From Trichodesmium erythraeum IMS101 (GTDB lineage: Bacteria; Cyanobacteriota; Cyanobacteriia; Cyanobacteriales; Microcoleaceae), in assembly GCF_000014265.1 (NCBI RefSeq), contig NC_008312.1:1200001-1232000 (forward strand): a stretch of 32,000 bases of DNA. The letters run 5' to 3'. This document shows, one piece after another, positions 4,780-28,079 of the stretch. The translations under genes and the position numbers were made by a program. Each line of letters opens with the position of its first letter. The first letter of the stretch is position 1. The notes beneath the pieces were generated by a model, which worked only from the letters and a program-made list of their open reading frames with translations, made no database searches and was not told where the DNA came from.

Positions 4780-5440
4780 AAGATTGATATGGGATAAAAT
4801 AACCTAGCTATATTAACGTTAAATCAAGTAGGTATGAAACCATTATTAATAAATGGTATATCTTTGAAATCTATCAATCAGTACTAGAACAAAGTTAGAG
4901 GCATTTTTTAAGCTCTTCTCAAAGAAAAGAAATCAGGTCAAAGGCTGAAAAAAAATTCTAATAAAAGAGAATTTCAAGTCAATAATTATCTCAGATATTG
5001 AATCTAGTTTGATTCTTAATAATCAAATCACTAACTTTTAGAGGATATTCTGATAATTGGCAAAAATTAGGAGTGTAAACAGGATATTAATTTAGGAAAA
5101 AAGAAGAATCAAAATATTTTTTAGATAGTCTATGCTAAGTTAATATAAATCTTATATTGTCTAGTAAAAATGGTAATAATTAAGGTAATTTTTAGCGGAT
5201 AATCTTATACCTAAAAATTAATTTTTATGGATATTGATGCAATTATTGTAAACAAAAATTGTGAGAAAAATTAGTCAACTTTTAGTGAAAAAAGGGTGAA
5301 ATGGGGTTGGTATCAGATAGGATGTGGAAGATTGATTAATGCTGATGTTAATGGTTCTTTTCTCCTGGTGATGATAGCAACAATCCTAAATACCTTTTAC
5401 TATAGGAGTTAGGGTGTTGTAATTAACCTATCTACGGGTA
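4780..5440 (+). pseudogene. tnpB: Decayed IS200/IS605-family tnpB (RNA-guided nuclease) relic, 5'-truncated
   Basis: By-eye translation across several frames and stops gives:
- KIDMG*NNLAILTLNQVGMKPLLINGISLKSINQY*NKVRG (the RuvC-I 'IDLG.NNLA ... NG..LKSINQYYNK' block)
- KREFQVNNYLRY (KR.NKI.DYLHK)
- ILIIGKN / NWQK / FRKKEESKYF (IVIGKN.GWKQ..NLGKK.NQNF)
- RIILYLKINFYGY (EESYTSK.SFLD)
- GCGRLINADVNGSF (C-terminal NADVNGS.NI)
No intact ORF remains. Confidence 0.55.
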
Positions 5441-5758
5441 ACGCCAACAAAATAAAACTATGGCATGTTTGACTATATTTTTATAACTATAAGGTGACAA
5501 GAAATAGAGAATAAGTCACAGAATAATGTCCTAGTATATTTGTATAGTCTTATAAATTAGGAACAATAAACCCCGGGGGCAAGAAGCTGCTATTGCCATG
5601 CCTCATAACAACAATAATGGATCATCGGTACTGTGTAAGTCTTAATATTTTTTTGCTACAAAATTGATGTTTTTTGTATAAATAAAGACTTTTTTAAATT
5701 TATTTTTTGGTAAAATATTTTAGTGAGCTTATTAAATATCTTAAAGACTCTATAAATA

Positions 5759-10323: not shown

Positions 10324-12036
10324 ATGAGTTATCGTATGAATAGACGGACCTATGCCGAGACCTTTGGTCCAACAGTAGGCGATCGCGTTCGTTTGGCAGA
10401 TACAGAATTATTTATTCAAGTTGAAAAAGATTACACGACCTATGGTGATGAAGTCAAGTTTGGTGGTGGTAAAGTAATTCGTGATGGCATGGGACAATCT
10501 CCCATATCCCGTGAAGGTGGTGCGGTAGATTTAGTAATTACCAATGCCCTAATTTTAGATTGGTGGGGTGTGGTCAAAGCGGATATTGGAATTAAAGACG
10601 GCAAAATTCATAAAATAGGTAAAGCAGGTAATCCTTATATTCAAGATCGGGTAGATATTATCATTGGTCCATCTACTGAAATAATTGCCGGAGAAGGACA
10701 TATTATCACGGCCGGGGGAATAGATAGTCATATTCACTTTATTTGCCCTCAACAAATAGAAATAGCGATCGCTTCTGGGATAACAACAATGATAGGAGGT
10801 GGCACAGGTCCGGCCACGGGTACTAATGCTACAACCTGTACTCCTGGTCAGTGGAATATTTGGATGATGCTGCAAGCTGCCGATGCTTTTCCAATGAATT
10901 TGGGTTTTTTGGGAAAGGGAAATAGTGCCAAACCAGAAGGGTTAATAGAACAAATTAAAGCTGGAGCCATGGGTTTAAAACTTCATGAAGACTGGGGAAC
11001 AACTCCTGCCGCCATAGATACTTGTTTAAGTGTTGCCGATGAATATGACGTACAAGTAGCTATCCATACAGATACCCTTAATGAAGCAGGTTTTGTTGAA
11101 AATACGATCGCTGCCTTTAAAGATCGAGTAATTCATACCTATCATACTGAAGGTGCGGGAGGTGGACATGCACCAGACATTATTAAAGTTTGTGCCCTCA
11201 AAAACGTATTACCTTCTTCAACTAATCCGACTCGTCCTTTTACAGTCAATACTTTAGAAGAACATCTTGATATGTTAATGGTGTGTCACCACCTTGATAA
11301 AAACATTCCTGAAGATGTAGCTTTTGCTGAATCTAGAATACGTAAAGAAACTATTGCTGCAGAAGATATTCTGCATGATTTAGGAGCATTTAGCGCTATT
11401 GCGTCTGATTCTCAAGCAATGGGTAGAGTGGGAGAAGTTATTATTCGTACTTGGCAAACTGCTCACAAAATGAAAGTACAAAGAGGTATTTTAGCTTCTG
11501 AGAAAAAGGAAGTAGCAGATAATTTTCGTGCTAAACGCTACATTGCTAAATATACTATAAATCCGGCAATTATGCACGGTATTGCTGATTATGTTGGTTC
11601 TATTGAAGCCGGTAAACTAGCGGATATTTGCCTTTGGAAACCTGCTATGTTTGGGGTCAAGCCCGAAATAGTTATTAAAGGTGGTGCGATCGCTTGGGCA
11701 CAAATGGGGGACCCCAATGCTAGTATTCCGACACCCCAACCTGTATATATGCGTCCCATGTTTGGTAGCTTTGGTGGTGCAACTTCCAGTACTTCTTTAA
11801 CTTTCGTCTCTCAAGAGGCATTAGACGCTGAGATACCTAAAAAAATCAATTTAAAAACCCCTGCTGTAGCTGTGAGTAATACACGAAATATTAGCAAGGC
11901 AGACATGAAACTAAATGAAGCTACACCTAAAATAGAAGTAAACCCTGAAACTTATGAAGTGAGAGCAGATGGTGAACTATTAACTTGTGAACCTGCCTAT
12001 GTTTTACCAATGACCCAACGTTATTTTTTATTTTAA
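10324..12036 (+). CDS. ureC: Urease subunit alpha (catalytic)
   Basis: 570 aa. Motifs seen: [77 protein letters not shown]-like ([12 protein letters not shown]). Confidence 0.97.
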
Positions 12037-16099: not shown

Positions 16100-17077
16100 A
16101 TGTTTATTTTTTCACAGGGATTATTTAAATTTGATTTTACAGACCATCATGCAATTTTAGGAGTTTCTCTGGATGCGGAGTTTGATGAGATTCGGAAAAG
16201 ATATATGTGGCTGGCACGTCGTTTACACCCTGATACCTGTCCTTTTGAAAAGGATATAGATAAGGAATTGGCTAATGAGTTATTATCTAAATTTGTGAGT
16301 CCAGCTTATAATAAATTTTCTAAGAAAAAGGAGCGCGCTGAACTTTTTGTCGTCCTTAAGGAATTAAGGAATAATATTACTTATAACCGTAGTCAGATTG
16401 AACTGAAAACTGATATAGCTAAACAAATTGCTCACGGGGGAAATTACAAAAAAACATATAAATTAGCTATTCAAGAATTGAGCGATCGCCAGTATCAATA
16501 TTTAGATAAAACTTTAGAAATTACAGGAGAAATTAGTGAGCTAAACTTAGCTTATCTTCTACGTAAACAAACTCAAAATCAAGATTATGTAATGCCACAG
16601 CGACCACCAACACAACCACCTAAAGATAACAATAAATCTACAACTATAAAACCAAAGGCTCAAAATTCTTTGGTAGATCAAGCTTGCCGTCGTGCAGAAA
16701 CTTTCATTTCTACGAAAAATTATGCTCAAGCAATTTTGGAGTTGAAAGGTACTCTAAAAACAGATCCAAATGATAGTCGTTATCATGCTTTATTAGGATT
16801 TTGCTATTTACACCAAAATCAAAATACAATGGCAAAAATTGAAATTAAAAAAGCTCTATCATTAAACCCTAAAGATCCAAAAGCATTAGAGGTACAAAAA
16901 ATATTGGAACAAGCTAAATCTAGTAATAATGATAGGAAAAAAACAGGTAAAGTAGCAAGTAAAACTAAACAGAAAGTAAATAAAACTGAGGTAGCAAGTA
17001 AAACTAAACAGAAAGTAAATAAAACTGAGCAAGCGGGTGGTTTATTTGGAGCTCTTTTTGGCAGGAATAAAAAGTAA
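16100..17077 (+). CDS. J-domain protein with C-terminal TPR region and Lys-rich tail
   Basis: 325 aa, with a GAGGAG Shine-Dalgarno sequence 8 nt upstream. The J-domain is DHHAILGVSLDAEFDEIRKRYMWLARRLHPD. TPR-like units are YAQAILELKGTLKTDPNDSRYHALLGFCYLHQNQNTMAKIEIKKALSLNPKDPKA. Confidence 0.8.
   Translation: MFIFSQGLFKFDFTDHHAILGVSLDAEFDEIRKRYMWLARRLHPDTCPFEKDIDKELANELLSKFVSPAYNKFSKKKERAELFVVLKELRNNITYNRSQIELKTDIAKQIAHGGNYKKTYKLAIQELSDRQYQYLDKTLEITGEISELNLAYLLRKQTQNQDYVMPQRPPTQPPKDNNKSTTIKPKAQNSLVDQACRRAETFISTKNYAQAILELKGTLKTDPNDSRYHALLGFCYLHQNQNTMAKIEIKKALSLNPKDPKALEVQKILEQAKSSNNDRKKTGKVASKTKQKVNKTEVASKTKQKVNKTEQAGGLFGALFGRNKK
16952..17029 (+). repeat. Perfect 39-bp in-frame tandem duplication inside the J-domain/TPR gene
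   Basis: GTAGCAAGTAAAACTAAACAGAAAGTAAATAAAACTGAG occurs twice back to back (16952-16990 and 16991-17029), encoding VASKTKQKVNKTE x2. Confidence 0.9.
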
Positions 17078-22027: not shown

Positions 22028-22136
22028 TTTCAGACTTAATTCAAAACTAAAAAGTTGAGAAGTTTTATCTAGTTATAAGTTCTGAGTAATATCAAATCTA
22101 AAAAACTTTTCGATGTTTTCCTAAGTAGGGATGTGT

Positions 22137-22205
22137 GGAAGTTGAGGAGCCGGGAAGTTTAGGAGCTGCGGAGTCCGGGAGCCAGGAAGTTGAAGAGTCG
22201 GGGAC
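22137..22205. repeat. GC-rich degenerate repeat of about 16 nt (GGAAGTTGAGGAGCCG-like, 4 units)
   Basis: ggaagttgaggagccg ggaagtttaggagctgc ggagtccgggagcca ggaagttgaagagtcgggga lies about 110 nt 3' of the 125-aa ORF. Confidence 0.7.
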
Positions 22206-22757
22206 AAATAAATATCAGAATTATATACAATTATTGGCTAGTAGTAATTCCTCTTAATGTTATTGAATCTTACTAATTGTTTGATGATAAAAGTTTTGCA
22301 TTAAGTATAGCATTGTTTGGGAGAAATACATCAATTTTTGAAATTTTATTTAATATTATTTAGGTTTTTGAAGTTTCTTAATGGTTGGTGTATTTCCTCG
22401 TGTTTTGTTAAGTGATCAACCATTTATCTACATAATAAAATTTAGATCTTTTGCCTGATTAAATTAACCTATTTACTACAAAATTGGGTTTAAGTTCGGG
22501 CTCAAGTTCATAAAAGTTTACAAAAATTATATAAAATTTACACAATGAAAATAAAATTAATAGGGACAGAGGAGGATATAGTTTTCTCTTTGCTAGTTTA
22601 AGCGATCGCTCTCCAAGAAAGGTCAAAAGTTACCTATTCAAAAGTCAAATGGAAACTATCTAAATTTAACGGTTTGAAAATGTCTTATAATGATGGGGGT
22701 TACTATATTTTAATAAACTGCTATATTTCAATAAATTTTATTTTAGGATAAACATTT

Positions 22758-23264
22758 ATGGTTTATATTCATCAACGGTTAGCTGATTTAGAGAAAACGA
22801 TTAAAATACTTTACGAAAAACTGGGGTCTTTTGAAAAAGAGCTAGCTATTATCTCTCCCGGTAGTGATAAAAAGTTTGAAATACAGCAACGCATTAAGAC
22901 AGAAGTCTTACCGGATATTTTTCGTTATGAAAAGGAATACTGGGAGCTTTATCCCATGCAGGAGGTTGTTATTCCTGAAGATCAGGCGGCCAGTCAGTTG
23001 GTACAAGTTGAGCAAGCAGTTACTTCTCTTGAAGGTTCTTTTGCTGAGTACCCTCCGGAAATGTTGGCTTTGTTGGCAGAAATTCGAGCTAGGTTGGATG
23101 GTTTGGAGAGATCAGCTTCTGCTAAATTGAAAGTTGCTATACCTTTAATTCCGGCGATCGCTTCCTATGAATTGGAGATGGATACCGAAGGTGTGATGTC
23201 TAAAACCTGGAAACCTCTCAGAGGATTGATCATGAGGTTACATCCTACCTTTTTTCGGAAATGA
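22758..23264 (+). CDS. Hypothetical all-helical protein (168 aa) immediately upstream of the NB-ARC gene, or a frame-shifted N-terminal module of it
   Basis: The ATG has AGGA about 10 nt upstream. The N-terminal heptad-like region is RLADLEKTIKILYEKLGSFEKELAIISPGSDKKFEIQQRIKTEVLPDIFRYEKEYWELY. An acidic linker follows, then LALLAEIRARLDGLERSASAKLKVAIPLIPAIASYELEMDTEGVMSKTWKPLRGLIMRL, which contains a hydrophobic Pro-containing segment. The stop TGA (23262-23264) overlaps ATGATG (23261-23266). Confidence 0.65.
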   Translation: MVYIHQRLADLEKTIKILYEKLGSFEKELAIISPGSDKKFEIQQRIKTEVLPDIFRYEKEYWELYPMQEVVIPEDQAASQLVQVEQAVTSLEGSFAEYPPEMLALLAEIRARLDGLERSASAKLKVAIPLIPAIASYELEMDTEGVMSKTWKPLRGLIMRLHPTFFRK

Positions 23265-23331
23265 TGGCCAGTCAAAAAGCAATCCACCTGTCAATAATCA
23301 TCTTTTTAAGCTCCCACTGTCAGATATTTCG

Positions 23332-24285
23332 ACGTTTACTGGGCGCAGGGATGAGCTGAAACAGTTGGAAAATTTACTGCTGTTTCAGGAGGGTGAGAAA
23401 GTATGCAGTATTGTGGGGTTGACGGGAGGAGGCGGAGTTGGTAAATCTGCTTTAGCTTATCATTTTGCTACTGTCCATCGGTATGAGTTTCCTGACGGAG
23501 TGATAGGTTTGCGAGTGGATAAAAAGGATGTCAATAGTATTGCCCGTCAGTTGGCGAGAATCATTGGCCATCCTATTGATGAGGATGATGATATAGAAGC
23601 TAGGGAGATTATGCAAAGGTTCTTTGCTCCCAGGCGGATGTTGCTGATTTTTGATAATGCGGAAGAGGCGAAAATTAAGGTACTACGTCCGGGGGGAAAC
23701 CGTTGTGCTATAATTGTTACTACTAGAAAGCAGAATTTGCCTGTTTCTTTGGATTTGTCTGAAACTGCTACAATTAGGTTAAGATCGCTCCCGGAAAATG
23801 ATGCTCTGGACTTACTGAGGAATATTGTGGGTCAAAGTGAGATTGATAATGCCTTAGCTGCAGCAAAACGGATAGCTGAAGTTGTTGGTAGGTTACCTTT
23901 GGCCCTACAGGTTGCAGGTGGTACTCTGCGGGGAAAAAGGCGATCGCTGGCTACTTATGCTGATTCTCTACAAAGGCAAAAGGAGCAATTGAGACTTTTA
24001 CCACGACTACGCTTGGGGGAAGATCCAGATTTTAATGTGGTAGCTTGTTTGAATTTGAGTTTGGAGTTTTTGCAGGAGGAGGAAATTGATTTTTTTGCTT
24101 GTCTGGGGGTTTGTGGGGAGGATGGGTTTGCTCTGAGAACGGCAATGGCAGCAGGGGGTTGTGAGGATGAGTTTGATGCTGAGGATTTTTTAAATAAGTT
24201 GTATGAGGTATCGTTGTTGAATTCTGAGGAAGTTCAACAGGACCGTTTTGTATTACATCCTTTGGTGCGGGAGTATGCTAGGTCT
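23332..24285 (+). other. NB-ARC (AP-ATPase) nucleotide-binding module of the STAND protein
   Basis: Runs from TFTGRRDEL through the P-loop, Walker B, TTR, GLPL-like and LHP (MHD-like) motifs, in the canonical order and spacing. Confidence 0.85.
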
Positions 24286-26955
24286 GTTGCTCAAGATAGG
24301 AATTTGCTGAGTTTGGCTCAGGAACGTCATGCTCAGTTTTTTGTGGAGCGGTTACAGTTTGATGATTTGGAGGATGAGACGGTTATTGCGGAAGTTGCTA
24401 CAGATTTGAGTGATGTGTTCTTAGCTGCTGAGTGGTTGCAGAGTTATTGGGGTCAGACGACGGAGAGTAGAAAGGAAGCTTATGAATTTGTTTTAAAGTT
24501 GCAGCCGTTATTTGAACATTATGGCTATTGGGAACAGGGAATTAGTCTGATGGAAAGACTTCAAACTTGGGCAGAACAATTTGATGATTGGTATACAATA
24601 GTTAGATGTCAAATGCACCAAGGTCGGTATTGGTCTTTTGTAGAAGAATTTGAACGAGCAGAAGAAATCTTAATTTCTGCAAAAGATATTTCATCTGATG
24701 ATCAAAAAATTGAAGATATAGATACGCGGGGGAAGCGCCATTCTAAAGTACTAAATGTACTAGGTGGTGTTTATAAGAAACAAGGTAAGACGGAAAAAGC
24801 TATTGAAACTTTTAAAGCACAAATAGCAATTGATGAAAGTCTTGATGATAAAAAGTCTCTTACTATTGCTTGGAACCGTTTAGGAGGAGTGTTAGAAAAA
24901 CAAGGTAAATTCAAGGAAGCACAGCAGGCTTTTGAAACCGAAATAGACCTCGCTAAAAGTATTGATGACAAACATGGACTTGCTATTGGCTGGAATTGTT
25001 TAGGAGGAGTGTTAGAAAAACAAGGTCAATTCAAGGAAGCACAGCAGGCTTTTGAAAAGGGAATAGAGCTGGCTAAAAGTCTTGATGACAAACGTGAACT
25101 TGCTATTGCCTGGAATTGTTTAGGAGGAGTGTTAGAAAAACAAGGTAAATTCAAGGAAGCACAGCACGCTTTTGAAAAGGGAATAGAGCTGGCTAAAAGT
25201 CTTGATGACAAACATCAACTTGCTATTGGCTGGAATTGTTTAGGAGGAGTGTTAGAAAAACAAGGTAAATTCAAGGAAGCACAGGAGGCTTTTGAAAAGG
25301 AAATAGAGCTGGCTAAAAGTCTTGATGACAAACATGGACTTGCTATTGGCTGGAACCGTTTAGGAGGAGTGTTAGAAAAACAAGGTCAATTCAAGGAAGC
25401 ACAGCAGGCTTTTGAAAAGGGAATAGAGCTGGCTAAAAGTCTTGATGACAAACATGGACTTGCTATTGGCTGGAACCGTTTAGGAGGAGTGTTAGAAAAA
25501 CAAGGTCAATTCAAGGAAGCACAGCAGGCTTTTGAAAAGGGAATAGAGCTGGCTAAAAGTCTTGATGACAAACATCAACTTGCTATTGGCTGGAATTGTT
25601 TAGGAGGAGTGTTAGAAAAACAAGGTCAATTCAAGGAAGCACAGCACGCTTTTGAAACCGAAATAGACCTCGCTAAAAGTCTTGATGACAAACATGGACT
25701 TGCTATTGGCTGGAATTGTTTAGGAGGAGTGTTAGAAAAACAAGAGAAACTCAAGGAAGCAGAGCACGCTTTTGAAAAAACAATCAAGAATACAGACTTC
25801 AATCATAAACAGTCTCTTACTCTTGGCTGGAAGCGTTTAGAAAGAGTGCAAAAAAAGAGGAAATTAAAGGAAGCACAACAAGCTTTGAAAGAACAAATAG
25901 AGAACGCTAAAAGTCTGGATGACCAAAAATCTCTTGCTATTAGCTGGAATTCTCTAGGAGAGTTGCTAAAAAAAGAGAGGAAACTAGATGAAGCACAGCA
26001 GGCTTTTGAAATAGTAATTAATATCAGCCAAAATTTCAAAGATCAATATTTTTTAACTGCGTGGGCATTACATAATTTAGGCATAATTTATAAATCAAAA
26101 AAAGAATTTGAAACAGCCGAAAAATTCCTCAAGGAAAGCGTCGAAATTTTTAAAGATAACAATTATTTACCAGGTTTAACAAAAGTGATGAGTACCCTAG
26201 GCAGTGTTCTAGAAAAACAACAGAAATGGAAAGAAGCAAAGAAAGTCTTAGAAGAAAGTTACAGTTTTGCCGAAAAACTTGGGGATGAATTAGGACAAGC
26301 TATTATAGCCAATAGCTTAGGACAAGTTATGGCTCATCTGGAAGAAGACGAAGCTCATGAGCGTTCCTTTATGTACTTTAACCAAAGCATTAAACTAGGA
26401 AAAAAACTAAATAATGAACCTCACCTAGCAAAAGTATATACAGCAAGAGGAAAAATATTTTGCAACCGCGGACAGAACGAACGCGCTGTTGAAGAATTGT
26501 CTCAAGGGTTTGAAATTGATGTCAAATTAGGCAACATCCGAGGTTTAAGGATAATTATTCCCAGTATAACCCGTATTTTATCTACATTAGGAAAACAAGA
26601 AGAAGCATTAGCATATTGTGAGCGGGCACTAAAAGTTGCTCCTAATAATACCAGTTTCCAAGAATTATATCACAAAATTCAGAGAGCGATCGCCACAGGT
26701 ACTCAGCCAACCTTCTTTATAACAGGTTCAGTGCAATACATTCGGTATGATAAAAAAGAAAAGTTATACAGGGGTAGAATTAGTCCAGATGATGGAACCT
26801 TAGACATTTTCTTTAACGACAAATACATGAATACTGAGTCTATATCTCAATTAACCGAAGGAGAGTTAGTAGAAGTTGAGGTCAAAGAAAAAAATGGAAA
26901 ACGCTATGCAAAACAAATTAGTGTAATTGAGGAAGAAGAAGATGATGATTGGTAA
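23365..26955 (+). CDS. STAND NTPase (NLR-like): NB-ARC domain + about 20 TPR-like repeats + C-terminal cold-shock-like OB fold; true 5' end unresolved (frame open from 23236)
   Basis: Coordinates are from the ORF track (TTG start).
- NB-ARC motifs read from the translation: P-loop GLTGGGGVGKS (23416-23448), Walker B LLIFDNAEE (D at 23653), IIVTTR (RNBS-B/sensor I), GRLPLALQVAG (GLPL motif, 23887-), LHPLVREYA (MHD-like, H at 24256).
- The same frame continues upstream without a stop as GYILPFFGNDGQSKSNPPVNNHLFKLPLSDISTFTGRRDELKQL. This includes the 'F.GR..EL..L' element that normally precedes the P-loop, so the TTG is probably not the real N-terminus. Confidence 0.9.
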   Translation: MENLLLFQEGEKVCSIVGLTGGGGVGKSALAYHFATVHRYEFPDGVIGLRVDKKDVNSIARQLARIIGHPIDEDDDIEAREIMQRFFAPRRMLLIFDNAEEAKIKVLRPGGNRCAIIVTTRKQNLPVSLDLSETATIRLRSLPENDALDLLRNIVGQSEIDNALAAAKRIAEVVGRLPLALQVAGGTLRGKRRSLATYADSLQRQKEQLRLLPRLRLGEDPDFNVVACLNLSLEFLQEEEIDFFACLGVCGEDGFALRTAMAAGGCEDEFDAEDFLNKLYEVSLLNSEEVQQDRFVLHPLVREYARSVAQDRNLLSLAQERHAQFFVERLQFDDLEDETVIAEVATDLSDVFLAAEWLQSYWGQTTESRKEAYEFVLKLQPLFEHYGYWEQGISLMERLQTWAEQFDDWYTIVRCQMHQGRYWSFVEEFERAEEILISAKDISSDDQKIEDIDTRGKRHSKVLNVLGGVYKKQGKTEKAIETFKAQIAIDESLDDKKSLTIAWNRLGGVLEKQGKFKEAQQAFETEIDLAKSIDDKHGLAIGWNCLGGVLEKQGQFKEAQQAFEKGIELAKSLDDKRELAIAWNCLGGVLEKQGKFKEAQHAFEKGIELAKSLDDKHQLAIGWNCLGGVLEKQGKFKEAQEAFEKEIELAKSLDDKHGLAIGWNRLGGVLEKQGQFKEAQQAFEKGIELAKSLDDKHGLAIGWNRLGGVLEKQGQFKEAQQAFEKGIELAKSLDDKHQLAIGWNCLGGVLEKQGQFKEAQHAFETEIDLAKSLDDKHGLAIGWNCLGGVLEKQEKLKEAEHAFEKTIKNTDFNHKQSLTLGWKRLERVQKKRKLKEAQQALKEQIENAKSLDDQKSLAISWNSLGELLKKERKLDEAQQAFEIVINISQNFKDQYFLTAWALHNLGIIYKSKKEFETAEKFLKESVEIFKDNNYLPGLTKVMSTLGSVLEKQQKWKEAKKVLEESYSFAEKLGDELGQAIIANSLGQVMAHLEEDEAHERSFMYFNQSIKLGKKLNNEPHLAKVYTARGKIFCNRGQNERAVEELSQGFEIDVKLGNIRGLRIIIPSITRILSTLGKQEEALAYCERALKVAPNNTSFQELYHKIQRAIATGTQPTFFITGSVQYIRYDKKEKLYRGRISPDDGTLDIFFNDKYMNTESISQLTEGELVEVEVKEKNGKRYAKQISVIEEEEDDDW
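24721..26034 (+). repeat. In-frame tandem array of 120-nt (40-codon) TPR-like cassettes: 8 near-identical core units (24841-25800) plus 3 diverged flanking units
   Basis: Unit starts lie at 24721, 24841, 24961, 25081, 25201, 25321, 25441, 25561, 25681, 25801 (38 codons) and 25915. The consensus is LDDKHGLAIGWNCLGGVLEKQGQFKEAQQAFEKGIELAKS. The units 25321-25440 and 25441-25560 are identical. Confidence 0.95.
26710..26925 (+). other. Cold-shock-domain-like OB fold at the C-terminus of the STAND protein, followed by the acidic tail EEEEDDDW
   Basis: The sequence is TFFITGSVQYIRYDKKEKLYRGRISPDDGTLDIFFNDKYMNTESISQLTEGELVEVEVKEKNGKRYAKQISVI. It follows the CSD pattern G.V.(W/Y)....(K)GYG(F)I..DDG..D(I/V)F(V/F)H.S.I......L.EG..VEF.V....GK..A..V. 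The RNP1/RNP2 positions are only partly aromatic (LYRGRI, DIFFN). Confidence 0.55.
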
Positions 26956-27167: not shown

Positions 27168-28079
27168 CTACCTATTTGCCAACCAATTAGATAAATCATC
27201 AAGATTATTAAACCTTAAAACTGCCTTAGTTAAACTCTCCAAATATGCCAAAGATAGACCATCAAGCTGAGTAGCAATTTCATCTTCTGGAACTTTGTCA
27301 AAACGCTCCTTGAGTAAAAGTATTATCATAGCAATTGTCCCTTTAATTCGACCCTTTTTCTCTCCTTTTTCCTCAGCAAAAAGTATACGCCCACTCTCAT
27401 CTTGTGCCATAATTGCCCGTTGTTCTAGCAACTCTAATTCCTTAACACTTAGATTAATTTCATTAGCAATATTGAGAGCTTTTTCTATCACCGAAACCTC
27501 CCCCAAAATTTCTGGAATAACCTCCAAACTGTCCGCCTCTTTAATAAAATAAATCCACTTATCCACTAAACTTTCCAACTCATCCAATGACTTATTAAAC
27601 TTCGGCAACTCCACAAAAACTAACCGCATTTCTGCCGCTGTATATTTAAAGAACTTTTTCTCATTTAAAAACGCAAAAGAATTAACAACATCCTCTATTT
27701 CTGGAAACATTTCAAAATCCGTAATTGTCACCCCAATAACTGGTTTTAAATGCCTGTAACCTTGGCGCGGACCTAATTGAGTAGAATAGGTTTTTGCCAA
27801 ATTATAAACCACCCGCTTATCAAAAGCAGTAACACTAGCTACCTGCATTTCAATAATCACCTGAGAATCATCATCCAATACTGCTCTAACATCCAAATAA
27901 CTATCCTTTAAAGTTTGTACCTGAGCGGGATTATAAGGATTAATTATTATTAGAGATTTAATCTGGTTTTTTCCATCATAAATAACCGCATTGAGAAAGC
28001 TAATTAATATGTCTTGACTTTGGTCAGAACCAAATATTTTCTTAAAAGCATAATCAGTTTTCGGACTAATAAATGCCAT
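27168..28079 (-). CDS. Rpn/YhgA-like PD-(D/E)XK nuclease family protein (putative domesticated transposase) with DUF4351-like C-terminal helical domain
   Basis: 303 aa. The N-terminus MAFISPKTDYAFKKIFGSDQSQDILISFLNAVI and the YLDVRAVLDDDSQVIIEMQV (D...E-x-Q) core are typical of the PDDEXK_2/Rpn family. The C-terminal part, KGTIAMIILLLKERFDKVPEDEIATQLDGLSLAYLESLTKAVLRFNNLDDLSNWL, resembles DUF4351. I could find no terminal inverted repeats. Confidence 0.8.
   Translation of the reverse strand: MAFISPKTDYAFKKIFGSDQSQDILISFLNAVIYDGKNQIKSLIIINPYNPAQVQTLKDSYLDVRAVLDDDSQVIIEMQVASVTAFDKRVVYNLAKTYSTQLGPRQGYRHLKPVIGVTITDFEMFPEIEDVVNSFAFLNEKKFFKYTAAEMRLVFVELPKFNKSLDELESLVDKWIYFIKEADSLEVIPEILGEVSVIEKALNIANEINLSVKELELLEQRAIMAQDESGRILFAEEKGEKKGRIKGTIAMIILLLKERFDKVPEDEIATQLDGLSLAYLESLTKAVLRFNNLDDLSNWLANR

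What the first reader, a model, noticed from the sequence alone, without database searches (positions are those of the whole stretch)
24721..26034. Sensor region of an NB-ARC protein is a strictly phased array of 120-nt cassettes built from reassorted, partly identical half-units
Seen directly:
- The unit start cttgatgacaaaca recurs at exactly 120-nt spacing at 25081, 25201, 25321, 25441, 25561 and 25681. Variant starts occur at 24841 (cttgatgataaaaag) and 24961 (attgatgac).
- Diverged units lie at 24721, 25801 and 25915.
- 25321-25440 and 25441-25560 are identical base for base.
- First halves 25201-25260 and 25561-25620 are identical. Second halves 25021-25080, 25381-25440 and 25501-25560 are identical. 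These halves are paired with different partners, so the array is a mosaic.
- The linked variant aaccgt (N-R) occurs in the units at 24841, 25321 and 25441. The linked variant gaaaccgaaatagacctcgct (ETEIDLA) occurs only in the units at 24841 and 25561.
- Differences among core units are restricted to a few codons: unit residues 5-6 HG/HQ/RE/KS; 10 G/A; 13 C/R; 23 Q/K; 29 Q/H/E; 33-36 KGIE/KEIE/TEID. Almost all are non-synonymous.

Established knowledge: in STAND/NLR proteins the C-terminal repeat domain is the ligand sensor. Highly internally conserved repeats with a handful of hypervariable positions are the signature of recombination-driven diversification described for fungal NLR repeat domains.

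Inference: this is a fast-evolving recognition surface, probably variable in copy number, maintained by unequal crossing-over or gene conversion on invariant tracts of up to about 60 nt.
Basis: partly seen in the sequence, partly recalled or inferred. Interest (0 to 1): 0.72.

Follow-up and report, generated by a model that had tools for sequence, protein, structure and literature searches.

The report
Near-identical TPR cassettes in cyanobacterial NLR
A Trichodesmium gene for an NLR-like ATPase switch has a sensor domain built from eight almost identical 40-residue TPR repeats that have been reshuffled by recombination; this is a real bacterial example of a repeat architecture already well described in fungal immune receptors.

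Summary
A 120-nt, in-frame tandem array (TRF 24836-26011, 9.9 copies) lies inside a 1196-codon ORF (23365-26955, +). The ORF encodes NB-ARC, TPR repeats and a C-terminal cold-shock-like domain. All identity claims were verified apart from three small errors. The mosaic claim is supported: multi-nucleotide variants occur in all four pairwise combinations, which implies recombination between units. Orthologous first units in three Trichodesmium lineages change 3-5 times faster at non-synonymous sites than the NB-ARC module. Positive selection is not shown, because dN/dS among units is 0.83. "Almost all non-synonymous" is roughly what neutrality gives. Copy-number variation cannot be tested, because every public short-read contig stops inside the array. 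The middle of the array (24938-25527) rests on this assembly alone. Variable residues lie on helix A, helix B and loops. The canonical concave TPR positions 2, 5, 9, 12 and 13 are invariant. The same 40-residue cassette, with the same variable positions, occurs in homologues from other cyanobacteria. Highly internally conserved TPR and WD repeats in bacterial NLRs are already noted in the literature, so this is a new member of a known kind. Separately, this lineage has lost the NLR's N-terminal adaptor motif and start codon, yet the gene remains under purifying selection.

The parts
22758..23264 (+). 168-aa partner ORF. It belongs to a conserved, stand-alone, all-helical cyanobacterial family of about 159 aa that normally sits 3 nt upstream of a variable partner gene.
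   Evidence: There are 252 homologues, almost all 158-169 aa, with no Pfam domain. Gene pairs were seen in Microcystis and in a JGI metagenome. The AF2 model has pLDDT 85.6 and seven helices, with no PDB fold match (best E = 0.44). dN/dS against L021 is 0.30, p = 1.6e-5.
23222..23364 (+). Stretch of the NLR reading frame that is open upstream of the first start codon. It encodes the conserved ...PLSDISTFTGRRDELKQ start of the NB-ARC module but contains no ATG, GTG or TTG.
   Evidence: Three-frame translation. The homologues P0004-P0006 have the same motif inside their ORFs. Alignment with MAG_R03 shows an out-of-frame deletion of about 135 nt that removed the coiled-coil N-terminus and the GTG start. 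There is a 3-nt in-frame indel relative to L021.
23365..26955 (+). 1196-codon ORF (TTG start as listed) encoding NB-ARC, a helical linker, TPR repeats and a cold-shock-like domain.
   Evidence: the ORF listing, Pfam. The NB-ARC motifs GGGGVGKS, LLIFDNAE, TTR, GRLPLAL and LHPL can be read in the translation. dN/dS is 0.36 against L021, p = 4e-4.
23392..23979 (+). NB-ARC nucleotide-binding domain (residues 10-205).
   Evidence: Pfam PF00931, 69.4 bits, cut-off 23.5.
24721..24840 (+). Unit 0: a diverged 40-residue TPR that precedes the array. It is orthologous across lineages but fast-evolving.
   Evidence: It differs from the core units at 59-63 of 120 nt, and from its MAG_R02 orthologue at 11 nt. 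dN/dS data are.
24841..25800 (+). Eight near-identical 120-nt / 40-residue TPR cassettes. The unit at 24841 is an edge variant, and the unit at 25681 diverges in its second half.
   Evidence: In the AF2 model, helix A is unit residues 4-20 and helix B is 24-40, with pLDDT above 90 across the array. The best fold matches are the 40-residue LGN/GPSM2 TPRs, with TM up to 0.86.
25801..26034 (+). Two diverged cassettes: a 38-codon unit at 25801 and a 40-codon unit at 25915.
   Evidence: These are the 3' end of the TRF array.
26035..26772 (+). Diverged, non-repetitive TPR region conserved with distant homologues (for example P0036).
   Evidence: Pfam TPR hits up to about residue 1102. Comparison with the P0036 sequence.
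26773..26925 (+). C-terminal cold-shock-like OB domain.
   Evidence: Pfam CSD, E = 1.2e-5, 25.5 bits, just under the 27-bit cut-off. The homologues P0019 and P0025 carry PF00313, and P0036 has the same C-terminus.

Best explanation
The region is the repetitive front part of the TPR sensor domain of an NLR-like STAND ATPase (NB-ARC, TPR, cold-shock-like domain) in Trichodesmium.

Shown: eight 40-residue helix-turn-helix cassettes arose by tandem duplication of a 120-nt unit. They share exact tracts of 60-154 nt, and the units have exchanged segments. The same few variant states (HG/HQ/RE/KS, G/A, C/R, K/Q, Q/H/E, KGIE/KEIE/TEID) appear in different combinations within the gene. Most of these states recur in the MAG_R02 orthologue, again recombined and joined by further variants.

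Inferred: the exact tracts are long enough for RecA-type recombination or replication slippage. The variable positions tune what the solenoid binds. As in other STAND proteins, ligand binding to the repeats would release the NB-ARC switch and allow oligomerisation. The ligand and the output are unknown.
For: - Domain content.
- Array anatomy.
- Four-gamete evidence from multi-nucleotide variants.
- MAG_R02 has HQ, HG, NR/NC, K/Q, Q/H/E and TEID-type states in other combinations, and the flanks differ by only 1.6-3.5%.
- The first array positions differ in all four lineages.
- Non-synonymous change in orthologous units 0-1 is 3-5 times that in NB-ARC.
- The same cassette occurs in Fischerella, Argonema, Laspinema, Trichormus, Moorea and a metagenomic homologue (P0007), and a cassette start is visible in Microcystis P0004. 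Within-protein variation recurs at unit positions 5, 6, 13, 23, 29, 34 and 36.
- Relatives of the NB-ARC module carry caspase, PNP_UDP, TIR, trypsin and CHAT N-termini, as expected for a conflict or cell-death family.
- NB-ARC is under purifying selection.
- STAND TPR sensors binding ligands and releasing autoinhibition is established (Nature 2026 paper). High internal repeat conservation linked to repeat shuffling is established for fungal NLRs.
Against: - dN/dS among units is 0.83, so diversifying selection is not demonstrated.
- With about 12 cassettes at the DNA level, no site test is possible.
- The canonical concave ligand positions are invariant, and four variable positions lie on helix B.
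- No strain-level polymorphism could be shown, and the middle of the array is unverified.
- The gene lacks its ancestral N-terminal adaptor and a canonical start codon.
- The neighbourhood is housekeeping (urease, HisS, MoeA), not a defence island.
- PADLOC gives only a generic TPR hit.
Confidence: 0.65

Rival explanations
1. The array is a neutral repeat expansion. It is a recently duplicated structural spacer whose surface positions simply tolerate change. Recombination between units is a by-product of sequence identity, not a diversification mechanism.
For: - dN/dS among units is 0.83, and it is 0.63-1.5 in orthologous units, which fits relaxed constraint.
- The variable residues are mostly polar positions.
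- The canonical concave positions are invariant.
- Two units are identical, which suggests a very recent duplication.
Against: - The same positions vary within proteins of eight lineages, while 26 of 40 codons do not vary even synonymously in the window.
- The C/R alternative at unit position 13 is kept in 7 of 8 lineages.
- The architecture is conserved in a family whose relatives carry cell-death effectors.
Confidence: 0.25
2. The order and number of the central cassettes is an assembly product. The array is real, but 24938-25527 could be collapsed, expanded or mis-ordered in the source assembly.
For: - All 14 other contigs examined stop inside or just before the array, and one scaffold has a 100-N gap there.
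- That scaffold threads the units differently, using only 31-mers shared with the window.
- The exact full-length product is not on record in the public collection.
- Fungal arrays of this kind are known to need long reads (paper title and abstract).
Against: - Contig ends fall at the branch points that the window's array predicts.
- L002 reproduces 25528-25800 exactly, and L010 reproduces up to 24937.
- The reading frame and the 120-nt phase are kept throughout.
Confidence: 0.25
3. The NLR gene is a decaying pseudogene, so the repeat variation is no longer functionally relevant.
For: - An out-of-frame deletion removed the N-terminal adaptor motif and the start codon.
- In MAG_R03 the partner gene is instead truncated at its 5' end.
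- W versus R02 dN/dS of 0.48 is not significantly below 1.
- An intact ORF is only weak evidence for function: P(no nonsense) is about 0.19.
Against: Lineages that share the deletion still show dN/dS of 0.36 (W-L021, p = 4e-4) and 0.34 (R02-L021, p = 5e-4) over 452 codons, with no stop codons. The post-deletion junction is kept in 17 protein clusters.
Confidence: 0.1

Closest known systems
Highly internally conserved TPR, ANK and WD repeats of fungal NLRs (Podospora HET-E/NWD family; Dyrka et al. 2014, PMC4986451)
   Same: - A NOD-type ATPase is followed by superstructure-forming repeats that are 85% or more alike.
- Variation is confined to a few positions per repeat.
- There is evidence of repeat shuffling.
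- NB-ARC is preferentially paired with TPR.
   Different: - This protein is bacterial.
- The unit is 40 residues, whereas the Podospora TPR domain was modelled on kinesin light chain 2, whose repeat I recall as about 42 residues.
- In Podospora all variable sites map to the concave helices, and repeat-number polymorphism and positive selection were measured. Here four variable sites are on helix B, selection is not shown and polymorphism is untested.
Bacterial NLR-like NB-ARC/TPR proteins of filamentous cyanobacteria and actinobacteria (Dyrka et al. [quoted passage not shown]
   Same: The architecture and the host type (a multicellular cyanobacterium) match. [quoted passage not shown]
   Different: The papers I read give no cassette-level analysis of a bacterial TPR array. 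This protein has a C-terminal cold-shock-like domain. It has no Bell/BASS amyloid partner; instead it has a different helical partner gene.
Avs / antiviral STAND pattern-recognition receptors (PMC13581612)
   Same: A STAND ATPase with a TPR-like sensor that binds a protein ligand. Binding relieves autoinhibition and drives oligomerisation.
   Different: Avs sensors are not described as near-identical tandem cassettes in the passages I read. There was no Avs model hit in PADLOC. There is no fused nuclease or protease effector, and the gene is not in a defence island.
LGN/GPSM2/Pins 40-residue TPR solenoid
   Same: It is the best structural match to the predicted array, with TM 0.84-0.86 normalised to the target, and it has the same 40-residue period.
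   Different: Sequence identity is only 22-23%. It is a eukaryotic polarity scaffold, its repeats are not near-identical, and it has no ATPase.
EAD-coupled conflict systems (Kaur, Burroughs, Iyer, Aravind 2020, PMC7159879)
   Same: Relatives carry EAD8 at the N-terminus. The ancestral N-terminal coiled coil gives weak EAD9 hits. A small constant 5' gene paired with a variable 3' gene recalls the EACC1 two-gene layout.
   Different: The EAD9 hits are below threshold (about 18 bits against 25). The small protein is not EACC1: there was no Pfam hit, no clear transmembrane helix, and it is cyanobacterial rather than actinobacterial.

Membership tests
STAND / NLR-like NB-ARC-TPR protein | NB-ARC (AP-ATPase) nucleotide-binding domain with Walker A and B, TTR, GLPL and MHD-like motifs | tested here: met
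   PF00931 scores 69.4 bits against a cut-off of 23.5. GGGGVGKS, LLIFDNAE, IIVTTR, GRLPLAL and VLHPL can be read in the translation.
STAND / NLR-like NB-ARC-TPR protein | C-terminal superstructure-forming repeats | tested here: met
   TPR_12 E = 5e-80, and TPR_1, TPR_2 and TPR_8 are all above their cut-offs. AF2 predicts a helical solenoid with pLDDT 87.
STAND / NLR-like NB-ARC-TPR protein | N-terminal effector or adaptor domain | tested here: not met
   In the window the P-loop is at residue 18 of the ORF and no start codon lies upstream. The adaptor-like coiled coil is present in the MAG_R03 orthologue and in P0013 but is deleted here.
Highly internally conserved (HIC) repeat NLR, as defined for fungi | Repeats 85% or more identical over at least 100 residues | tested here: met
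   Six units (240 aa) have mean amino-acid identity 88.2% and nucleotide identity 94.6%. Seven units have mean amino-acid identity 85.7%. The criterion is quoted from Dyrka 2014.
Highly internally conserved (HIC) repeat NLR, as defined for fungi | Repeat shuffling or concerted evolution | tested here: met
   Four-gamete combinations of multi-nucleotide variants. Variant states are shared with MAG_R02 but reassorted.
Highly internally conserved (HIC) repeat NLR, as defined for fungi | Repeat-number polymorphism between isolates | not testable with these tools
   No other assembly spans the array.
Highly internally conserved (HIC) repeat NLR, as defined for fungi | Positive diversifying selection at specific repeat positions | tested here: inconclusive
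   Pooled dN/dS among units is 0.83. In orthologous units 0-1 it is 0.63-1.53, with dN 3-5 times that of NB-ARC. There are too few cassettes for site models.
Highly internally conserved (HIC) repeat NLR, as defined for fungi | Variable sites on the ligand-binding (concave) surface | tested here: inconclusive
   By alignment to consensus TPR and the canonical concave set 2, 5, 9, 12, 13, 33, 34 plus 6, only position 6 and the residues at about position 34 vary. Positions 22, 26, 27 and 29 on helix B also vary. No coordinates were available.
Avs antiviral STAND families | Match to a defence-system Avs model, or demonstrated phage-protein sensing | tested here: not met
   PADLOC returns only the generic 'TPR' model and a spurious HEase hit. 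Phage sensing cannot be tested here.
Diversity-generating retroelement target | Nearby reverse transcriptase with a template repeat and adenine-specific differences | tested here: not met
   All ORFs of 300 aa or more in the window are accounted for: RsmB, UreC, DnaJ-TPR, HisS, M48, the NLR, PDDEXK_2 and MoeA. Differences are of all types: C/G 6, A/C 4, C/T 4, A/G 3.

The most novel reading that the evidence does not exclude
This cyanobacterial NB-ARC/TPR/CSD family may diversify its sensor combinatorially. It would draw on a small, ancient alphabet of cassette alleles (C or R at TPR position 6, K/Q, Q/H/E, KGIE/TEID and others) that is kept across genera and reshuffled by intragenic recombination. 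Colonies or strains of Trichodesmium would then carry different arrays. That would be a bacterial counterpart of fungal HIC-NLR or cassette-assembled receptors. In Trichodesmium the receptor may be expressed without its own start codon, for example by a +1 shift at TTT TTT C (23247-23253) that fuses it to the upstream partner protein.
Probability: 0.15. Interest if true: 0.65.

Novelty: new member of a known kind. Interest (0 to 1): 0.38.

Why it matters
If long reads confirm that the array differs between strains, it would show that the repeat-shuffling strategy of fungal NLRs also operates in bacteria. That would support a shared, ancient way of diversifying intracellular receptors in multicellular microbes. 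It would also point to a self/non-self or anti-phage sensor in Trichodesmium, a globally important nitrogen fixer in which programmed cell death is ecologically relevant (the ecological point rests on my own knowledge, not on a tool result). In practical terms, the result flags a locus that short-read genomes and MAGs systematically truncate.

Tried and rejected
- Strain polymorphism from scaffold L001. Its 17 differences from the window over 8444 nt all fall in the array. However, every 31-mer of its array exists in the window's array, so I treat it as assembler mis-threading, not variation.
- Exact look-up of the full product, as 1196 aa from the TTG start and as 1180 aa from the GTG start. 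Neither is on record.
- Metagenome scan for the invariant 23-mer. No hits.
- Protein search with the array itself. Only 3 hits, so it was uninformative for finding paralogous cassette donors.
- Frameshifted N-terminal domain. I first read the upstream 168-aa ORF as a domain split off by a frameshift. I rejected this because the ORF belongs to a stand-alone family of about 159 aa. The real lesion is a deletion in the NLR's own 5' end.
- 'Hungry codon' support for a +1 shift at TTT CGG. CGG is not rare here, at 5.9 per 1000 codons, similar to CGA and AGG.
- DGR mutagenesis. No reverse transcriptase is present, and there is no adenine bias.
- Fold of the small partner protein. No PDB match.
- Concave versus convex mapping from coordinates.
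- Marold et al. 2015 (the 42-residue TPR-like class) could not be read. My recollection of it is a lead only.
Full report
**What is there.** The window comes from Trichodesmium. Flanking genes are 100% identical to several Trichodesmium-derived contigs. The closest named homologues are Trichodesmium MAG proteins. Positions 23365-26955 (+) hold a 1196-codon ORF. Pfam finds NB-ARC at residues 10-205 (69.4 bits, cut-off 23.5) and a long run of TPR families (TPR_12 E = 5e-80). A cold-shock-like domain lies at the extreme C-terminus (25.5 bits, just under the 27-bit cut-off). The same domain is present in the homologues P0019, P0025 and P0036. No ORF of 80 aa or more overlaps the array on the other strand.

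**Check of the observation.** TRF finds one array at 24836-26011, with period 120, 9.9 copies and score 1572.
- The units are in frame with the ORF.
- Three details need correcting. The unit at 25081 begins cttgatgacaaacG. Exact repeats reach 154, 99 and 96 nt rather than about 60. The list of variable codons omits codons 1 and 8 and the purely synonymous changes at codons 3, 12 and 37.
- The six central units are 94.6% identical in DNA and 88.2% in protein.

**Is the array real?** I examined 14 other public contigs from the same or near-identical genomes. All of them stop inside or just before the array, and one scaffold has 100 Ns there. Several of the ends coincide with branch points predicted by the window's own repeat structure:
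- 24906 and 24937 on the left.
- 25528 and 25672 on the right.

L010 confirms the sequence up to 24937 and L002 confirms it from 25528 onward, with no mismatch. The 590 nt between them have no independent support. Scaffold L001 threads the first units differently, and its 17 mismatches all lie in the array. All of its 31-mers occur in the window's array, so this is best read as assembler mis-threading, not polymorphism. The exact order and copy number therefore remain a property of this one assembly.

**Mosaic structure.** Among the seven units 24841-25680, 21 columns and 14 codons vary. Three variants were compared:
- AACCGT versus AATTGT (2 nt).
- AAA versus CAA.
- ACCGAAATAGACCTC versus AAGGGAATAGAGCTG (5 nt).

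They occur in all four pairwise combinations. Two of the three are multi-nucleotide haplotypes, so recurrent mutation is an unlikely cause. Exchange between units is the simplest explanation. The synonymous differences are all linked to adjacent non-synonymous ones. This suggests old, diverged cassette alleles being recombined rather than fresh point mutations.

**Selection.** Pooled dN/dS among the seven units is 0.83 (Sd 44, Nd 147). About 80% of sites are non-synonymous, so 'almost all non-synonymous' is close to the neutral expectation and proves nothing. A better signal comes from orthologues.
- In three Trichodesmium lineages (window, MAG_R02, environmental contig L021), the first two TPR units have non-synonymous densities of 0.069-0.093.
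- The NB-ARC part of the same gene has 0.013-0.027 (Fisher p = 4e-5, 4e-5 and 3e-4).
- dN/dS is 0.63-1.53 in those units, against 0.34-0.48 in NB-ARC.

The sensor start is clearly fast-evolving. Whether that reflects positive selection, relaxed constraint or imported conversion tracts cannot be separated with about a dozen cassettes.

**Orthologues and the wider family.**
- MAG_R02 carries cassettes with the same variant states (HQ, HG, NR/NC, K/Q, Q/H/E, TEID-like) in other combinations, plus new ones (II, TRID, TEIG). Its flanks differ by only 1.6-3.5%.
- P0001 and L021 again differ at the first array positions.
- Homologues from Fischerella, Argonema, Laspinema, Trichormus, Moorea and a metagenomic homologue (P0007) have the same 40-residue cassette (consensus LNDQxxLAIGLN[CR]LGGxLQQQGxxxEAxxxFQRxIxIxEx). 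A cassette start is also visible in the partial Microcystis protein P0004. Most of these are truncated at contig ends.
- Within-protein variability recurs at unit positions 5, 6, 13, 23, 29, 34 and 36 in five to eight of eight lineages. Positions 9, 11, 12, 14, 15, 19, 26, 31, 32 and 37 never vary.
- The C/R alternative at position 13 is present in seven of the eight lineages.
- Relatives of the NB-ARC module carry caspase, PNP_UDP, TIR, trypsin or CHAT N-termini, as expected for a conflict or cell-death STAND clade.

**Where the variable residues sit.** AF2 predicts the array confidently: pLDDT is above 90 across it, with 17-residue helices and 3-residue turns. Helix A is unit residues 4-20 and helix B is 24-40. 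The best PDB fold matches are the 40-residue LGN/GPSM2 TPRs, with TM 0.84-0.86. HMMER alignment to consensus TPR puts unit residue 8 at TPR position 1. Magliery and Regan give the concave ligand face as positions 2, 5, 9, 12, 13, 33 and 34, with 6 also used.
- In the window's units, TPR positions 2 (I), 5 (N), 9 (G), 12 (E) and 13 (K) are invariant.
- The variable positions are 3, 6, 16, 22, 26, 27 and 29, plus the two residues at the start of helix A.
- From the antiparallel topology I infer that most of these cluster at the edge of the solenoid that carries the inter-repeat loop: unit residues 5, 6 and 10 on helix A, and 33, 34 and 36 on helix B.

This pattern differs from the all-concave pattern reported for a Podospora TPR NLR.

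The NLR frame is open from 23222. It encodes the conserved PLSDISTFTGRRDEL start of the NB-ARC module, but it has no ATG, GTG or TTG before the TTG at 23365.

The upstream 168-aa ORF (22758-23264) is not a split-off domain.
- It belongs to a stand-alone, all-helical cyanobacterial family of about 159 aa, with 252 hits. The AF2 model has pLDDT 85.6 and no PDB fold match.
- Family members normally end 3 nt before a variable partner gene. That partner's N-terminus carries a coiled-coil motif of about 55 aa with weak EAD9 similarity.
- MAG_R03 keeps that layout with this NLR as the partner.
- In the window, MAG_R02, L021 and 17 protein clusters, an out-of-frame deletion of about 135 nt removed the motif and the start codon.

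Lineages that share the deletion still show dN/dS of 0.36 and 0.34 over 452 codons (p = 4e-4 and 5e-4). The gene therefore appears to remain functional. How it is translated is unknown. A +1 shift at TTT TTT C is conceivable, but CGG is not a rare codon here.

**Comparison with what is known.** High internal conservation with a few variable positions, repeat shuffling and repeat-number polymorphism are well documented for fungal NLR WD, ANK and TPR domains. The Dyrka et al. 2020 preprint states explicitly that bacterial NLRs also include WD and TPR repeats with 80-90% internal identity that may diversify in the same way. The mechanism by which STAND TPR sensors bind ligands and release autoinhibition is established for Avs proteins. 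This locus is therefore a new, well-resolved member of a known kind.

The parts that are less expected:
- The 40-residue period.
- The variable sites on helix B.
- The cassette alleles shared across genera.
- The C-terminal cold-shock-like domain.
- The loss of the N-terminal adaptor while purifying selection continues.

**Verdict.** The NLR sensor, the mosaic structure and the fast evolution are supported. Positive selection, copy-number variation and a concave recognition face are not shown. Interest is moderate.

Noticed in passing
window 23222-23364, junction at 23247-23264; also L007, L008, L021: The NLR has no canonical start codon upstream of its conserved FTGRRDEL motif. An out-of-frame deletion of about 135 nt, shared by many Trichodesmium lineages, removed its coiled-coil N-terminus and GTG start. 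The upstream ORF now ends ...HPTFFRK* at TTT TTT CGG AAA TGA. The gene is still under purifying selection (dN/dS 0.36). A +1 frameshift fusion with the upstream protein is possible but untested.
   Followed up: partly
window 22758-23264; L019 6001-8259; L020 6001-7899: The 168-aa ORF belongs to an unannotated, conserved, all-helical cyanobacterial family of about 159 aa. Its last codons contain the GGAGG ribosome-binding site of a tightly coupled downstream gene. That downstream gene varies: TM plus periplasmic-binding domain, PPC/CarboxypepD_reg, or NB-ARC/TPR. It always starts with a similar coiled-coil motif (weak EAD9). The layout looks like an undescribed 'constant small gene plus variable partner' module, analogous to EACC1.
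   Followed up: partly
L008 (Trichodesmium MAG_R03), about 5300-5700: In this lineage the NLR keeps its N-terminal motif and GTG start. The small partner ORF has instead lost its 5' half to unrelated sequence. The two-gene module therefore carries different lesions in different Trichodesmium lineages.
   Followed up: partly
window 10477-10763 (-): There is an Rfam hit to 5_ureB_sRNA (103.9 bits), antisense within the urease alpha-subunit gene (10324-12036). It probably reflects conservation of the urease coding sequence rather than a real Helicobacter-type antisense RNA.
   Followed up: no
window 22137-22202 and 22028-22757: There is a 16-nt tandem repeat (GGAAGTTGAGGAGCCG, 4.1 copies, 66% matches) inside a 730-nt AT-rich intergenic region upstream of the partner ORF. 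Its function is unknown.
   Followed up: no
window 16952-17029: A perfect 39-nt tandem duplication (2.0 copies) lies at the 3' end of the DnaJ-TPR gene (16100-17077).
   Followed up: no
window 27168-28079 (-): A PD-(D/E)XK family transposase-like gene (PDDEXK_2 plus DUF4351) is convergent with the NLR and lies immediately downstream of it.
   Followed up: no
L021 3325-4815: In an environmental Trichodesmium-like contig, the same partner-plus-NLR pair sits in a different neighbourhood (aldehyde dehydrogenase upstream). A gene with EAD4 and TRADD-like N domains lies nearby, so the module has moved or is paralogous.
   Followed up: no
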